Assembly: GCF_046105845.1 (NCBI RefSeq)
Contig: NZ_CP151004.1
From: Escherichia coli
Lineage (GTDB): Bacteria > Pseudomonadota > Gammaproteobacteria > Enterobacterales > Enterobacteriaceae
Strand: one strand, 5' to 3'
DNA: 64,000 nt
Part shown: positions 35,301 through 41,300 of the stretch, in pieces
Numbering within the stretch: the first letter of the stretch is position 1
Layout of the letters: each line of letters starts with the position of its first letter
Program-made: the position numbers

Positions 35301-38300
35301 CAGCGCCATTCCTTGCTTTATAACGCAGCCGGAGAGAAATCCTGATGATGAGAAAATATTTCCCGCTTGAGGCTAGCGAGCGTCTATTTGTTGCGATTGA
35401 AGAAGATGATGTCGTTGATGCACAGGTCAGTTTGCCGCCGACTATCGCACTAAGTTGTACCACCGAAATCATCCATGATAATTACGCGTTATGCCTGAAA
35501 TTCTGGCTGGATGGTGTTAATCGTCAGGAGCTACTGCGTTTAATCCGCAAACAGGCGAAAGGCGATGAGCTGACGACAGACGAGCGCAAAAAGTATAAAT
35601 ACATGCGAGCGCGCTACAAGCACCTGCGTTTTGCGCAACGGCTGTATTTAAAGAAGCATCAGGCCGGATTTTTATTCGGCAAAACGACCGTTTTTTTGGG
35701 GCGTTTTCAGGACGGCTTTCGTAACGGTAAGAAAAATATTGTGTCGTATTACGGCAACCTGTTACGGGTTTATTTAAGCTCTTCGGTCTGGTCGTTGGTG
35801 AACTATTCATTACGCCATAGCCAGTTAGAAAGCGTAAGCGGTTTTATTGCCTATCGGCAAAAGCAAATGCATACCCTGAAAGAGATAATTGCCAAACCGC
35901 GACTAACTGGCAGGGAATTTCATGATGTGCGAAAAATCATCAGCCAGCAGGTTTCTTATTACGACACCCTAAGATCGCTTGATCCTGAAAATAAAGAGGC
36001 GTTACAGATTTCCCGCTTCCTCGCCGCCATTAATGGCCTGATGGGGGATAAACACGACGACATGGTGGCGGATGATATGGAAAACCGCCAGTCGTATGAT
36101 GCACCGGTGGCGCTGGATAGCGATATTCGCCAGCGCTTAGAGCTGCTGATTTCGCGTTTTCCGCTATAACCGGAGCAATGATGTCATCTCGTTTGATTAT
36201 TGCGCTGATTATCATGCTCTTAGCCCCGGGTGTGCAGGCACACAATTTCGTCACTGGCAAAACGGTTACCCCCGTTTATATCCAGGAAGGCGGTGAGTTG
36301 CTTCTGAATAGCGACGACGAAATTCACTACCAAAAGTGGAACAGCACACAGCTGGCGGGAAAAGTCCGCATTATTCAGTATATCGCCGGGCGTAAGTCGG
36401 CGAAGAAAAAGAACTCACTGTTAATTAAAGCGGTTGAAGCGGCAAACTTTCCGCAGGATCGTTTTCAGCCCACCACCATTGTGAACACCGATGATGCCAT
36501 CTTTGGTACTGGCTATTTTGTCGTTGGCAAAATCGAAAAAAATAAACGCCGCTATCCGTGGGCGCAATTCGTTATTGACGGCAATGGACTGGGACGCGTT
36601 GCCTGGCGGTTGCCGGAGCAGAGTTCAACCATTCTGGTGCTGAATAAAGACGGGCAAATTCAGTGGGCAAAGGACGGCAGCCTGACGCCGGAAGAGGTAG
36701 ATCATGTCATTGCGCTGGCGCAGAAACTGATCAATGAATAAAAAATTCAAAGGATTGAGGGCGTTAGTGAGATGAAGCTGGTTGAACACTACATCATGCG
36801 TGGTACGCGCCGTCTGGTGTTGATTATCGTCGGTTTTCTGATCTTTATTTTCGCCAGCTACTCCGCACAGCGTTATCTGGCCGAAGCGGCAAATGGGACA
36901 TTAGCTCTTGATGTTGTGCTGGATATCGTTTTCTACAAAGTGCTGATTGCACTGGAGATGCTGTTACCTGTTGGACTATATGCTTCAGTTGGCGTGACGC
37001 TAGGGCAAATGTATACCGACTCGGAAATTACCGCTATCTCCGCGGCGGGGGGCAGTCCGGGACGCTTGTACAAAGCCGTTCTTTATCTGGCGATACCGCT
37101 AAGTATTTTTGTCACCCTTCTGTCGATGTATGGTCGTCCGTGGGCTTATGCGCAGATTTATCAATTGGAGCAACAGTCACAGTCGGAGCTGGATGTTCGC
37201 CAGTTGCGGGCAAAGAAATTTAACACTAACGATAACGGACGAATGATCCTTTCGCAGACGGTTGATCAGGATAATAATCGCCTGACTGACGCGCTGATTT
37301 ATACTTCTACTGCCAATCGAACCCGCATTTTCCGCGCCCGTTCGGTTGATGTGGTTGACCCATCACCTGAGAAACCGACTGTTATGTTGCACAACGGCAC
37401 TGCCTATCTTCTCGATCATCAGGGGCGTGACGACAACGAACAGATCTACCGTAATCTGCAATTACATCTGAATCCGCTGGATCAAAGCCCTAACGTCAAA
37501 CGCAAAGCGAAATCGGTCACGGAGCTGGCGCGCTCCGTCTTTCCAGCCGATCATGCCGAACTGCAATGGCGACAAAGCCGTGGCCTGACAGCATTGTTGA
37601 TGGCGCTGCTGGCCATTTCATTAAGTCGGGTAAAACCGCGGCAAGGGCGATTTTCAACATTATTGCCACTGACGTTGCTGTTTATTGCCATTTTTTATGG
37701 CGGCGACGTCTGCCGTACGCTGGTGGCTAACGGCGCGATTCCCCTCATTCCTGGTTTGTGGTTAGTACCCGGACTCATGCTAATGGGCCTGCTGATGCTG
37801 GTCGCACGCGACTTCTCTTTGCTGCAGAAATTTTCCCGATGAATGTTTTCAGTCGCTATTTAATCCGTCATCTCTTTCTCGGTTTTGCCGCCGCCGCAGG
37901 ATTATTGCTGCCGCTTTTTACCACCTTCAACCTGATTAACGAACTGGATGATGTCAGCCCGGGCGGTTATCGCTGGACTCAGGCGGTGCTGGTGGTGCTG
38001 ATGACCTTACCGCGCACACTGGTCGAACTTTCGCCGTTTATCGCATTATTGGGAGGGATTGTTGGCCTGGGGCAGTTATCGAAAAACAGTGAGCTTACCG
38101 CTATTCGCAGCACTGGGTTTTCTATCTTCCGTATTGCACTGGTGGCGCTGGTTGCCGGGATATTGTGGACTGTTTCGTTAGGCGCGATAGATGAGTGGGT
38201 GGCGTCGCCATTGCAGCAACAGGCGCTGCAAATCAAATCGACTGCCACCGCGTTGGGGGAGGACGATGACATTACCGGCAATATGCTTTGGGCCAGGCGC

Positions 38301-41300
38301 GGTAATGAATTTGTGACGGTGAAATCGCTGAACGAGCAGGGCCAGCCTGTGGGCGTGGAGATATTTCATTATCGCGACGATCTCTCGCTCGAATCCTACA
38401 TTTTTGCACGCAGTGCCACCATTGAAGACGACAAAACGTGGATCCTGCATGGTGTGAATCATAAAAAATGGTTGAATGGCAAAGAAACGCTGGAAACATC
38501 AGATAATCTTGCCTGGCAATCGGCCTTCACCAGTATGGATCTTGAAGAGTTATCGATGCCGGGGAATACTTTTTCTGTCCGTCAGCTTAATCATTACATC
38601 CATTATTTGCAGGAAACCGGGCAACCCAGCAGCGATTACCGCCTTGCACTGTGGGAAAAACTGGGGCAACCCATCTTAACTCTGGCGATGATTTTGCTGG
38701 CTGTGCCGTTTACCTTTAGTGCCCCGCGTTCGCCTGGGATGGGTAGCCGTCTCGCTGTAGGCGTCATCGTGGGCTTACTCACCTGGATCAGCTATCAAAT
38801 CATGGTCAATCTGGGATTGCTATTTGCGTTGAGCGCACCTGTTACCGCGCTCGGTTTACCGATAGCGTTTGTGCTGGTGGCGTTGAGCCTGGTGTATTGG
38901 TATGACAGTCAACATTAAACCCGCCGTGGCGCAGCACCACAGCGGGCTCACATTACTGCTTCAGAGTAGCAAATGCCTGAATGATGGCATCGATTTGCTC
39001 ACGACTGTGGGCAGCGTTTACGCTACAGCGCAGCAGCGTGATGCCTGCAGGCGCGGCAGGTGGCAGGATAAGATTCACATAAACGCCCAGCGAAATAAGC
39101 TCGCGCCAGATGCGTAAACCTTCCTCTTTCGAACCGATTATTACTGGCACTACCGGGCTAATATGTGAACTTAACTCGTAACCCAGTTTTTGCAGACCGT
39201 CATACAGATGGTTGGCGTTATCCATCAGCTTTTGCCGCAGCTCTGGTTGTGAGGCAATGGTTCTTAACGACGAGCGCACGGTCGCAATGCAGGACGGAGA
39301 AGGAGAGGCGGTAAAAATATACGGGCGGCTGCCGTAGCGCAGCACTTCCATCGCTTCCGAACCGACAGCAAAACCGCCAATCGAGGCCAGACTTTTACTG
39401 AAAGTACCAACGATAATATCCACATCATCTTCAACGCCAACGGCTTCAGCCAGTCCGCGCCCCATTGCGCCTAACACGCCAAACGAATGCGCTTCATCGA
39501 CAATCAAATAACCACCGAGACGACGTTTGATATCAACAATTTCCGCTAACGGCGCAACGTCACCGAGCATGCTGTAGATACCCTCAACGATGATAATCGC
39601 CTCTTTCGCCCGTTCACCGAGGCGAACCATGCGCCGTTCCAGATCTTTAGCATCGTTATGGCGGAAACGAATAATTTCCGCGCCACCGAGAGAACAGGCG
39701 TCATAAATACTGGCGTGGCTGTCGGCATCCAGTAACACCACGGCGTTATGGTCGGCAAGTGCGCTGATGACGCCTAAATTAGCGGTATAACCGGTTGAAA
39801 AAACGATAGCGGTAGGGCGATTAAAAAACTCGGCGATCTCTTTCTCTAACGCCAGATGCGGCGCATAACTGCCGTTTGCCATACGAGAACCGGTGGTGCC
39901 GGTGCCTTGGGCCGCTAACGCTGCCTGACCTTCGGCGATGGCATCATGATTGAAGGTTAATCCGAGATAATTATTGGTCCCGGCCAGAATCACTTTTTTA
40001 TTGCCGATCCGACCTTCGGTGGCGGAATACACTTCATCAATACAGGTACCAAACGGCGTTAACCCGTTGTCACTAAATTGCAGTCGCTCGCCAGCAAGGC
40101 GCGCATATTTATCGTATAGCCCCATTATTTATTCTCCAGCCATGGAAGTAGTGTTTCCATTAATTGCGCAGGGGTTTTGACATCCAGCAGAATATTAATA
40201 GGAATGGAAATATCGAATCTGTCTTCCAGCATCATTAAGAGATCCATCACTTTGATCGACTCCAGGCCAAGATCGTTGACGAGATCGCTGTCGGGCTTAA
40301 TTTCCACACCGTTTTCGACCAAATCCTGTAAACAGGAAAGGATGTAATCCATTACTATTTCACGATTTACCATAGAAACGTTAACACACCTTTAAACAAG
40401 ACAATCAAAATAGCCCGTTGCGTAATGCGTGTTCCAGGCTAATCCCGGGAAACCAATTAATATCTTCAGAAATACGGTTATTACTTGCCGACCAGTCGGC
40501 ATGAGTTAATTCACGGATTTTCGAACGAGTCAGCATCGGTTCTTTACCCGCCAGACGGCTCAACGCGGTACTGATATCCGCAAGGCAGGTGAGTAGCGAC
40601 AGAGGAATACCGACCATCCGCACGGAACCACAACGGGCGTCGGCGGCAAGCTGTCTTACGCGTTGCCAGTCATAGCCGCCGGCGACGCCATCGCATAATT
40701 CATAGGTTTGCGTCTGTACAGTTTCGGCGCTTAACCACTGCCCCACGGCTTGCGCGAAATCGGTGACGTGCAGGAAAGAGAGCTGTGTCTCTGGCGCACC
40801 AAGTCGTGGCAGCAGGCCGCGCAGCATCCAGTCAAACAGCGGTTTTAACTCTTTATCGCCGGGACCATACACGGCTGTCGGGCGAAAAACGCCCAGCGTA
40901 ATTTCATCAGCCATTGCAGTCAGCCGTTGTTCGGCGACGTGTTTGGAATTTGCGTACCAGGAGAGTTCGGGATGGCGCGCCGCCAGCGAAGAGATAAACA
41001 GAAAACGTTGGCAAAAGCCGCTCTCTTTTGCCGCTTGCATCAGTCGCAGGCTGCCGTCAACGTTACAGCGGGTAAAAATCTCTTCTTTGTGCCCGCGCAC
41101 TTGCCCGGCGCAATGGACCACCGCGCTGGCTCCGGCAACCAGTTCGCTAAGTGAATGAGTATCTTCCAGAGAACCGCGCACCCAGATGAGATTGTCATTG
41201 ACGTGAGCGCGGGCAGTACGCGTCAATGTGCGAACGTGAAAGCCGCGGGCGAGCAGGTTATCGATAATATATTTACCGATAAACCCGGTAGCGCCCGTCA

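What the first reader, a model, noticed from the sequence alone, without database searches (positions are those of the whole stretch)
36178..38918. Second copy of LptF/LptG-like permeases plus a YtfJ-like periplasmic protein, next to the lipid operon
Seen in sequence: two adjacent translationally coupled (ATGA) genes whose products carry LptF/LptG landmarks, preceded by a signal-peptide protein. Established knowledge: canonical lptFG lie elsewhere on the chromosome and with LptB/LptC extract LPS from the inner membrane. Inference: a dedicated extractor/exporter for the operon product; no ABC ATPase gene is in the window, so the partner ATPase is unknown.
Basis: partly seen in the sequence, partly recalled or inferred. 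Interest (0 to 1): 0.7.

Follow-up and report, generated by a model that had tools for sequence, protein, structure and literature searches.

The report
Second LptFG pair in sphingolipid locus
Most E. coli strains (not K-12) carry a second, diverged copy of the LPS-extractor permeases LptF/LptG inside a sphingolipid-synthesis gene cluster. It most likely exports that cluster's lipid, an idea already published and tested in Caulobacter, so the finding is real but not new.

Summary
Window 36178-38918 holds a signal-peptide YtfJ-family gene, then lptF-like and lptG-like genes joined by an ATGA overlap. Both permeases pass NCBI's curated LptF/LptG cut-offs and align end to end with solved LptF/LptG chains.

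They are second copies. Canonical lptFG (28-30% identical) is in 5425 of 5426 complete E. coli genomes, and this locus is in 4149. K-12 lost it at an IS5 element.

The neighbours are the five known ceramide genes: aasR, cerR, acpR, spt and yghO/cerS. In 60 of 60 species-level genomes with full flanks, relatives of this LptG lie within 10 kb of ceramide genes. The LptB-coupling glutamates are invariant, while several LPS-contact lysines are replaced by acidic or neutral residues.

No ABC ATPase is in the window. Shared use of LptB, shown in Caulobacter in a 2026 preprint, is the best guess.

The less-described part is YtfJ2, a cysteine-free thioredoxin-fold periplasmic protein. It travels with a MOP flippase and a CHAD-fold protein rather than with LptF2G2, and it occurs only in Enterobacterales-type loci.

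The parts
36178..36741 (+). ytfJ2: second YtfJ-family gene. Encodes a secreted, cysteine-free thioredoxin-fold protein (the alternative start at 36181 is used by RefSeq).
   Evidence: TIGR01626 at 215 bits, cut-off 151. 55% identical to K-12 YtfJ b4216, and canonical ytfJ is present in 5417 of 5426 genomes. AF2 model pLDDT 87 with a TlpA/ResA/CcmG/peroxiredoxin-like fold. No Cys in the sequence. dN/dS 0.13.
36772..37842 (+). lptF2: LptF-type permease paralogue.
   Evidence: TIGR04407 at 317 bits, cut-off 230. 30% identical to K-12 LptF. Full-length match to solved LptF chains. Coupling-helix Glu conserved, E85 = LptF E84. dN/dS about 0.05.
37839..38918 (+). lptG2: LptG-type permease paralogue. 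Its start overlaps the lptF2 stop (ATGA).
   Evidence: TIGR04408 at 306 bits, cut-off 240. 28% identical to K-12 LptG. Full-length match to solved LptG chains. E85 = LptG E88 is conserved, while K34/K40/K41 become N/D/D. dN/dS about 0.05.
35345..36169 (+). Context: 274-aa cytoplasmic protein of CHAD-like fold ('Hyp274'), directly upstream of ytfJ2.
33996..35345 (+). Context: yghQ, a MOP/Polysacc_synt-type flippase candidate.
   Evidence: Weak NCBIfam MOP flippase match. Pfam Polysacc_synt on the Serratia and Erwinia orthologues. Truncated by IS5 in K-12.
31581..33950 (.). Context: yghT (-, 31581-32273), yghS (+, 32447-33160) and yghR (+, 33192-33950). These are three paralogous dTMP-kinase-like P-loop proteins.
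   Evidence: Walker A but no ABC signature. Each has a DR[YF]PQ motif. Weak dTMP kinase profile hits. RefSeq names them dTMP kinase / YghR.
38953..43040 (-). Context: the spt-acpR-cerR-aasR operon, convergent with lptG2. Coordinates are spt 38953-40125, acpR 40125-40373, cerR 40405-41319 and aasR 41316-43040.
   Evidence: Serine palmitoyltransferase NF047599 at 599 bits, cut-off 500. Fatty acyl-AMP ligase NF006624 at 869 bits. ACP and SDR epimerase-family hits. RefSeq annotation. The BL21 enzymes were characterised in PMC9386255.
43409..44551 (+). Context: yghO, the bacterial ceramide synthase (N-acyltransferase) homologue.
   Evidence: Named as the 'aca'/CerS orthologue ECD_02850 in PMC9386255. 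Conserved at 52-98% identity in 54 related loci.

Best explanation
lptF2-lptG2 encode the membrane half of an LptB2FG-type extractor. It is dedicated to the sphingolipid made by the surrounding locus, not to LPS.

Proposed pathway (inferred): ceramide is built in the cytoplasm by AasR, AcpR, Spt, YghO/CerS and CerR. It is probably given a phosphate-containing head group by the Enterobacterales-specific genes (YghT/S/R kinase-like proteins and the CHAD-like Hyp274). It is then flipped by the YghQ MOP flippase. LptF2G2 pulls it out of the outer leaflet of the inner membrane, using ATP hydrolysis by the cell's single LptB. The lipid is passed through the periplasmic jellyroll domains to the shared Lpt bridge and on to the outer membrane.

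YtfJ2 is a soluble periplasmic, redox-inactive thioredoxin-fold protein. It belongs to the flippase/Hyp274 sub-module. It most likely binds or handles the anionic head group in the periplasm and is not a piece of the Lpt bridge.

Shown here: homology, paralogy, locus linkage, residue patterns and purifying selection. Inferred: the substrate, the use of LptB, and the YtfJ2 role.
For: 1. True LptF/LptG homologues over their full length.

2. A second copy beside a near-universal canonical pair.

3. Embedded in the experimentally validated ceramide gene set.

4. A scan of one genome per species with an LptG2 alignment gave 78 family loci. Of the 60 with full 10 kb flanks, all 60 carry at least one ceramide core gene and 58 carry spt. 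The 9 loci with none are all truncated.

5. Remote relatives at 37-44% identity sit in Caulobacter-type CPG loci with DAGK_cat, CDP-OH_P_transf, Tam41 and NTP-transferase genes.

6. The coupling-helix glutamates that hold LptB (LptF E84, LptG E88; PMC5082905) are invariant in all 77-78 family members.

7. LPS contacts defined by cryo-EM (PMC6744409) are only partly kept. LptF R33 and K317 and LptG K62 and R136 stay basic. LptG K34 becomes N/D/T, K40 becomes D/E, K41 becomes D and R133 becomes hydrophobic. LptF K322 becomes N. K34E is lethal in LptG. This fits an anionic lipid smaller than lipid A-core.

8. dN/dS is about 0.05 for both permeases.

9. No ATPase is in the window. In Caulobacter, LptF2/G2 co-purify with LptB and are essential only when anionic sphingolipid is made.

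10. YtfJ2 is present in all 47 Enterobacterales-type loci and none of 31 CPG-type loci. It stays next to Hyp274 and YghQ even where these are inverted or 10 kb away from lptF2G2.
Against: There is no experiment in E. coli. My literature searches found no report of a sphingolipid detected in E. coli, or of a phenotype for these genes.

The gamma-proteobacterial LptF2/G2 proteins are only 24-25% identical to the Caulobacter proteins that were tested (S2 Table of PMC11324152). The transfer of function therefore rests on context and family, not on close orthology.

About 24% of complete E. coli genomes, including K-12, lack the locus, so it is dispensable in the laboratory.

The acidic residues on LptG2 TM1 are also present in CPG-type loci, whose product is strongly anionic. 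The charge pattern therefore does not map simply onto head-group charge.

The YtfJ2 role is inferred only from fold, conserved basic residues and gene linkage.
Confidence: 0.72

Rival explanations
1. The pair is an alternative or back-up LPS (or other glycolipid) extractor, as the RefSeq product names 'LPS export ABC transporter permease LptF/LptG' imply.
For: Both proteins exceed the curated equivalog cut-offs for LptF and LptG and are so named in RefSeq. The hydrophobic cavity residues and several basic LPS contacts are kept.
Against: Identity to the canonical pair is only 28-30%. Key LPS-phosphate and core contacts are reversed in charge, including the K34 position where K34E is lethal. The linkage to ceramide genes is strict, 60 of 60 loci. 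Canonical lptFG is retained in essentially every genome.
Confidence: 0.06
2. In E. coli the locus is cryptic. The genes are intact but not expressed or not productive under known conditions, so LptF2G2 has no current transport role.
For: The searched literature reports no E. coli sphingolipid. K-12 lost the segment at an IS5 element with no known consequence. About 24% of complete genomes lack it. The promoter-like site count is not above chance.
Against: There is strong purifying selection (dN/dS 0.05-0.13) across Escherichia lineages with dS of 0.26-0.77. Intact orthologues occur in 47 Enterobacterales species genomes. The BL21 Spt, AcpR and AasR proteins are active in vitro (PMC9386255).
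Confidence: 0.12
3. YtfJ2 is a structural part of the transporter: a periplasmic acceptor or bridge element that replaces LptC2 (absent outside Caulobacter) and takes the lipid from LptF2G2.
For: It is secreted and lies directly upstream of lptF2 in 33 of 46 loci. The 2026 preprint reports lptC2 as restricted to Caulobacter.
Against: The fold is thioredoxin-like, not the beta-jellyroll of LptC/LptA. In rearranged loci YtfJ2 stays with Hyp274 and YghQ, not with LptF2G2. The 31 CPG-type loci have LptF2G2 but no YtfJ. It is 55% identical to the housekeeping YtfJ, which is not linked to lpt genes.
Confidence: 0.1

Closest known systems
Caulobacter crescentus LptF2/LptG2 (CCNA_01214/01213; Uchendu, Isom and Klein 2026 preprint; proposed in Padilla-Gomez et al. 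2024)
   Same: A second LptF/LptG pair encoded inside the sphingolipid locus, with no dedicated ATPase. The preprint's Fig. 2B legend lists the E. coli UTI89 sphingolipid operon, with homologous genes shown in matching colours.
   Different: The E. coli locus has no LptC2. It has different head-group genes (YghT/S/R and CHAD-like Hyp274 instead of CpgA/B/C and nucleotidyltransferases). It adds YtfJ2. Sequence relatedness to the Caulobacter pair is low by proxy: 24-25% for the Azotobacter and P. luteola orthologues. There is no experimental work in E. coli.
E. coli LptB2FG(C) LPS extractor (LptF b4261, LptG b4262)
   Same: Same family and length, same TM/periplasmic-domain layout, same coupling-helix glutamates, and a translationally coupled F-G gene pair.
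   Different: 28-30% identity. Several lipid A phosphate and inner-core contacts are replaced (LptG K34, K40, K41, R133; LptF K322). The genomic context is ceramide synthesis rather than pepA. The pair is dispensable (absent from K-12).
CPG-type sphingolipid loci of Pseudomonas, Azotobacter, Nitrococcus and beta-proteobacteria (Padilla-Gomez 2024, Fig. 7)
   Same: The LptF2-LptG2 pair is 44-60% identical to the window proteins and sits beside spt-acpR-cerR-aasR and cerS.
   Different: These loci carry DAGK_cat, Tam41, CDP-OH_P_transf, Metallophos and NTP-transferase genes. They lack YtfJ2, Hyp274 and the MOP flippase.
YtfJ (E. coli b4216; TIGR01626 / PF09695), an uncharacterised periplasmic family
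   Same: 55% identity, same length and signal peptide, and the same invariant residues.
   Different: YtfJ2 is a second copy confined to sphingolipid loci. Canonical ytfJ lies between ytfI and ytfK. Neither has a known function.

Membership tests
LptF/LptG permease family (PF03739; TIGR04407, TIGR04408) | Full-length profile match above the curated cut-off | tested here: met
   317 bits against a cut-off of 230 (LptF) and 306 against 240 (LptG), covering nearly all model positions. There are also single-stretch matches to solved LptF/LptG chains.
LptF/LptG permease family (PF03739; TIGR04407, TIGR04408) | Conserved coupling-helix glutamate that engages LptB (LptF E84, LptG E88) | tested here: met
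   LptF2 E85 and LptG2 E85 align to these residues. They are invariant in 77-78 family sequences. Their role is defined in PMC5082905.
LptF/LptG permease family (PF03739; TIGR04407, TIGR04408) | Three TM segments, a periplasmic beta-jellyroll, then three TM segments | tested here: inconclusive
   Hydropathy peaks and the alignment span match the canonical proteins. I did not model the fold of the periplasmic domain.
LPS-specific LptFG (the 'equivalog' meaning of the RefSeq name) | Basic residues that bind lipid A 1'- and 4'-phosphates and the inner core (LptG K34, K40, K41, K62, R133, R136; LptF R33, K317, K322) | tested here: not met
   Kept: LptG K62 (as R) and R136 (as K/R), and LptF R33 and K317 (as R/K). 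Lost or reversed: K34 to N/D/T, K40 to D/E, K41 to D, R133 to L/Q/V/I, and LptF K322 to N. The contacts are defined in PMC6744409.
LPS-specific LptFG (the 'equivalog' meaning of the RefSeq name) | The sole, essential lptFG pair of the genome | tested here: not met
   Canonical lptFG is present in 5425 of 5426 genomes. This pair is absent from about 24% of genomes, including K-12.
Sphingolipid-locus LptF2/LptG2 (Uchendu et al. 2026) | [quoted passage not shown] | tested here: met
   Flanked by spt, acpR, cerR, aasR and cerS. All 60 related loci with full flanks carry ceramide genes.
Sphingolipid-locus LptF2/LptG2 (Uchendu et al. 2026) | F2-G2 complex that binds the housekeeping LptB | not testable with these tools
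   Shown by pull-down in Caulobacter only. Here there is only the conserved coupling-helix Glu and the absence of any ATPase gene in the window.
Sphingolipid-locus LptF2/LptG2 (Uchendu et al. 2026) | Deletable only when anionic sphingolipid is not made | not testable with these tools
   This is a genetic result in Caulobacter. There are no E. coli data.
Sphingolipid-locus LptF2/LptG2 (Uchendu et al. 2026) | Sequence orthology to CCNA_01213/01214 | not tested
Published identities of the Azotobacter and P. luteola orthologues to the Caulobacter proteins are 24-25%.
YtfJ family (TIGR01626 / PF09695) | Profile match, signal peptide and thioredoxin-like fold | tested here: met
   215 bits against a cut-off of 151. 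Signal peptide read from the sequence. Foldseek matches to TlpA/ResA/CcmG/peroxiredoxin structures at probability 1.00, TM about 0.55-0.6.
Thiol-disulfide oxidoreductases (TlpA/ResA/CcmG, peroxiredoxins) | Catalytic CxxC or peroxidatic cysteine | tested here: not met
   The protein has no cysteine at all. The family-invariant residues at the equivalent site are A69 G70 R71 ... A74 K75 ... N78.
Complete ABC transporter operon | A nucleotide-binding subunit encoded with the permeases | tested here: not met
   No ORF in the 64 kb combines Walker A with an ABC signature. YghT/S/R are dTMP-kinase-like with a DR[YF]PQ motif.

The most novel reading that the evidence does not exclude
Enterobacterales carry a distinct variant of the sphingolipid locus. 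The Caulobacter-type ceramide-phosphoglycerate genes are replaced by three dTMP-kinase-like P-loop proteins, a stand-alone CHAD-fold (polyphosphate-binding-type) protein, a MOP flippase and a periplasmic cysteine-free thioredoxin-fold protein (YtfJ2).

This would imply an undescribed, probably (poly)phosphorylated ceramide head group in E. coli and its relatives. It would also give the first functional handle on the widespread uncharacterised YtfJ family, as periplasmic handlers of anionic lipid head groups working upstream of an LptB-sharing LptF2G2 extractor.
Probability: 0.25. Interest if true: 0.6.

Novelty: already known. Interest (0 to 1): 0.3.

Why it matters
E. coli is the organism in which the Lpt machine is best understood. 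A natural second LptFG pair that probably shares LptB, and perhaps LptC/A/D/E, offers a tractable system. It could show how substrate specificity is set in LptFG, and how two lipid streams compete for one ATPase and one bridge.

It also raises the question of whether common E. coli strains such as BL21, UTI89 and many pathogens make an outer-membrane sphingolipid that K-12 work has missed. The core idea is already in the literature, so the added value here is modest. It consists of quantitative support for the linkage, a residue-level signature of the LptF2/G2 clade, and evidence that YtfJ2 and a CHAD-like protein form an Enterobacterales-specific sub-module.

RefSeq's product names for these genes ('LPS export ... 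LptF/LptG') are probably over-specific.

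Tried and rejected
- Promoter and terminator consensus scan of 31500-39100: counts were not above the shuffled expectation (8 found against 9.2 expected; 12 against 10.1). It gives no evidence on operon boundaries.
- YghT/S/R as hidden ABC ATPases: rejected. They have Walker A only, no ABC signature, a dTMP-kinase-type DR[YF]PQ motif and only weak thymidylate-kinase profile hits.
- YtfJ2 as the missing electron donor for periplasmic CerR (an open question in PMC11087976): rejected, because the protein has no cysteine.
- Sequence search of YtfJ2 against PDB chains: only chance-level hits.
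- Two context look-ups landed on contigs too short to be informative.
- LptF R212, the LptC-bypass suppressor site as I recall it: it aligns to A/S/G/T in the family alignment but to a gap in the pairwise alignment, so I draw no conclusion.
- I did not retrieve Caulobacter LptF2/G2 sequences, so direct orthology was not tested.
- I did not look up canonical lptFG in the single best-matching genome. I rely on the 5425 of 5426 count.

Full report
**What is in the sequence.**
The window is an E. coli chromosome segment running ygiS-parC ... hyb-gss-pitB [island] glcC-glcDEFGBA-sslE-gsp. It is 99.9% identical over the finding to strain Res13-Lact-PER13-34.

At the stated coordinates there are three co-directional ORFs:
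- a 186/187-aa YtfJ-family protein (36178 or 36181 to 36741),
- a 356-aa LptF-like protein (36772-37842),
- a 359-aa LptG-like protein (37839-38918).

The last two overlap as ATGA. The first carries a typical Sec signal ending VQA|HNF, without a lipobox. NCBIfam equivalog models score all three above their curated cut-offs: YtfJ 215 bits against 151, LptF 317 against 230, LptG 306 against 240, over almost the whole model length. Both permeases align in one stretch with solved LptF and LptG chains. Their hydropathy pattern matches the canonical proteins.

**Second copies.**
K-12 lptF-lptG beside pepA is found in 5425 of 5426 complete E. coli genomes. The finding's region is found in 4149 (76%). 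The two pairs share 30% and 28% identity.

YtfJ2 is 55% identical to K-12 YtfJ, whose gene is in 5417 of 5426 genomes. In K-12 MG1655 an IS5 copy (insH9) lies between yghO and a truncated yghQ. The segment hyp274-ytfJ2-lptF2-lptG2-spt-acpR-cerR-aasR is missing.

**Context.**
Downstream and convergent lie the following genes:
- serine palmitoyltransferase (599 bits, cut-off 500),
- an ACP,
- an SDR/epimerase-family reductase,
- a fatty acyl-AMP ligase (869 bits),
- then yghO.

These are the five ceramide genes spt, acpR, cerR, aasR and cerS. The E. coli BL21 versions were characterised biochemically by Padilla-Gomez et al. 2022 (PMC9386255).

Upstream in the same direction are yghS, yghR, the MOP-type flippase yghQ and a 274-aa protein with no family hit. 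yghT is divergent.

No ABC ATPase is in the 64 kb. YghT/S/R have a Walker A and a dTMP-kinase-type DR[YF]PQ motif, but no ABC signature.

**Literature.**
Padilla-Gomez et al. 2024 (PMC11324152) named LptC2/LptF2/LptG2 in the Caulobacter sphingolipid locus and proposed that they transport phosphosphingolipids.

Uchendu, Isom and Klein (bioRxiv 10.64898/2026.04.12.717747) reported the following:
- These genes can be deleted only when spt or the ceramide kinase cpgB is deleted.
- LptF2 and LptG2 co-purify with each other and with the sole LptB.
- lptF2/lptG2 occur in many alpha- and gamma-proteobacterial sphingolipid loci, while lptC2 appears restricted to Caulobacter.
- Fig. 2B draws the E. coli UTI89 operon.

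Neither paper mentions YtfJ. A search for YtfJ found no functional study. Searches for yghQ/R/S/T/O and for E. coli sphingolipids found no functional work or lipid detection.

**Comparative genomics done here.**
YtfJ2 relatives in Serratia liquefaciens and Erwinia billingiae sit in the same module, with the spt operon placed upstream instead of downstream.

An exhaustive phmmer search with LptG2 showed a steep score drop after the Enterobacterales proteins. Hits at 44%, 44% and 37% identity lie beside an LptF partner in Caulobacter-type loci. Those loci carry DAGK_cat, CDP-OH_P_transf, Tam41, Metallophos and nucleotidyltransferase genes, and two also show spt-acpR-cerR-aasR.

A scan of one genome per species with an LptG2 alignment returned 78 family loci plus one unrelated hit. 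tblastn of the window's proteins and of CPG-type proteins against these loci gave these results:
- LptF2 is present in 77 of 78 loci.
- Among the 60 loci with full 10 kb flanks, all carry at least one ceramide gene and 58 carry spt. The nine loci with none are truncated.
- 47 loci are Enterobacterales-type and carry YtfJ2. They span Escherichia, Hafnia, Shimwellia, Serratia, Erwinia, Pantoea, Citrobacter, Pluralibacter, Mangrovibacter, Rosenbergiella, Sodalis and others. 46 of them also carry Hyp274.
- The other 31 loci (Pseudomonas, Stutzerimonas, Azotobacter, Nitrococcus, beta-proteobacteria) have none of YtfJ2, Hyp274 or YghQ. Most carry one or more CPG-type head-group genes (26-28 loci each have NTP-transferase, DAGK_cat or Tam41 homologues).

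In a neighbour-joining tree the spt-linked sequences form a clade away from canonical E. coli LptG. Of two near-outgroup sequences looked up, one lies about 1.7 kb from a class I/II aminotransferase-family gene of Spt-like length (406 aa). The other lies with an Elm1-like and an MsbA-like ABC gene, with no ceramide gene on its 7 kb contig.

**Residue-level reading.**
The coupling-helix glutamates needed for LptB binding and function (LptF E84, LptG E88; PMC5082905) are invariant in the family.

The LPS contacts are listed by Tang et al. 2019 (PMC6744409). Their fate in the LptF2/G2 family is as follows:

| Canonical residue | In LptF2/G2 family |
|---|---|
| LptF R33 | kept (R) |
| LptF K317 | kept basic (R/K) |
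| LptG K62 | kept basic (R) |
| LptG R136 | kept basic (K/R) |
| Cavity hydrophobics | mostly kept |
| LptG K34 | N/D/T |
| LptG K40 | D/E |
| LptG K41 | D |
| LptG R133 | hydrophobic (L/V/I) or Q |
| LptF K322 | N |

K34E is lethal in LptG. I read this as a cavity still suited to an acylated, anionic lipid, but not to bis-phosphorylated lipid A with its core. That is an inference.

dN/dS between the window and other Escherichia lineages is about 0.05 for lptF2 and lptG2, and 0.13 for ytfJ2. The genes are therefore under purifying selection.

**YtfJ2.**
The AF2 model (pLDDT 87) has a TlpA/ResA/CcmG/peroxiredoxin-like thioredoxin fold. The protein has no cysteine. The family-invariant residues where the CxxC would sit are A69-G70-R71...A74-K75...N78. 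This suggests an anion-binding helix N-terminus (inference).

Gene order argues that YtfJ2 belongs with Hyp274 and YghQ rather than with the permeases. It is adjacent and co-oriented with Hyp274 in 42 of 46 loci, against 33 for LptF2. In Sodalis, Serratia sp. M24T3 and Rosenbergiella (the yghQ-hyp274-ytfJ2 unit), and in Erwinia sp. JUb26 and Pantoea coffeiphila (the hyp274-ytfJ2 pair), the unit is inverted or lies 10 kb from lptF2G2.

**Conclusion.**
The partner ATPase is most likely the housekeeping LptB, by analogy with Caulobacter and because the LptB-coupling residues are conserved.

The claim is already in the literature, so novelty is low. What remains open, and mildly interesting, is the Enterobacterales-specific sub-module: YghT/S/R, YghQ, the CHAD-like Hyp274 and YtfJ2. 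It points to an undescribed head group and a first functional context for the YtfJ family. It also leaves open whether E. coli makes this lipid at all.

Noticed in passing
[not shown]
   Followed up: partly
window 31581-33950 (yghT -, yghS +, yghR +): Three paralogous P-loop proteins with a dTMP-kinase-type DR[YF]PQ motif occupy the place taken by ceramide kinase/CPG genes in Caulobacter-type loci. RefSeq calls two of them 'dTMP kinase', which is unlikely to be their real role. Distant copies (32-38% identity) also occur in some Pseudomonas loci (L052, L063, L065, L089).
   Followed up: partly
L004 (K-12 MG1655 3126000-3138000), equivalent to window about 35000-43400: In K-12 an IS5 (insH9) sits between yghO and a truncated yghQ, and the eight genes from hyp274 to aasR are missing. 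K-12 therefore lacks the pathway that 76% of complete E. coli genomes carry.
   Followed up: yes
window 36772-38918; RefSeq annotation in L001: RefSeq/PGAP names these paralogues 'LPS export ABC transporter permease LptF/LptG', because they pass the equivalog cut-offs. Context and altered LPS-contact residues suggest the name is over-specific.
   Followed up: yes
window 35345-38918 versus L016, L017, L018: Synonymous divergence between the window and the species-representative E. coli genome L016 is high: dS 0.26-0.63 depending on the gene. Only 13 of 4149 genomes are at least 99% identical over the region. The locus seems to exist as divergent alleles within Escherichia.
   Followed up: no
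LptF2 near residue 206-212 (window about 37390-37405): The LptF R212 position aligns to A/S/G/T in the LptF2 family alignment, but to a gap in the pairwise alignment. As I recall, R212 is where suppressors allow life without LptC. If the family alignment is right, it would fit an LptC-independent transporter. The alignment is too uncertain to say.
   Followed up: partly
L024; L062: L024 is labelled Martelella alba (an alpha-proteobacterium) but carries an Enterobacterales-type locus 60-79% identical to the E. coli proteins, so it is a possible mislabel or contaminant. The Pseudomonas MAG L062 has YghT/S/R at about 70% identity to E. coli beside a Pseudomonas-type LptF2G2, which could be a chimeric bin or gene transfer.
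   Followed up: no
L011 15010-16722; L095 4144-5895: In uncultured relatives, an MsbA-like full ABC transporter gene (ABC_membrane + ABC_tran) and an Elm1-like gene lie next to LptF2G2-type pairs. The ABC gene is a possible dedicated flippase in loci that lack the MOP flippase.
   Followed up: no
window 40405-41529 (-): The longest ORF for the CerR-type reductase (374 aa, GTG start) overlaps the 3' end of aasR by about 200 bases. RefSeq starts it at MNQTVAV (304 aa, 40405-41319), which fits the orthologues better.
   Followed up: partly
L005/L006 12844-15791 (Serratia liquefaciens): Directly downstream of lptG2 in Serratia are genes for a MipA-family outer-membrane protein and a PAP2 phosphatase. 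These could be additional envelope or lipid-phosphate functions linked to the locus in that genus.
   Followed up: no
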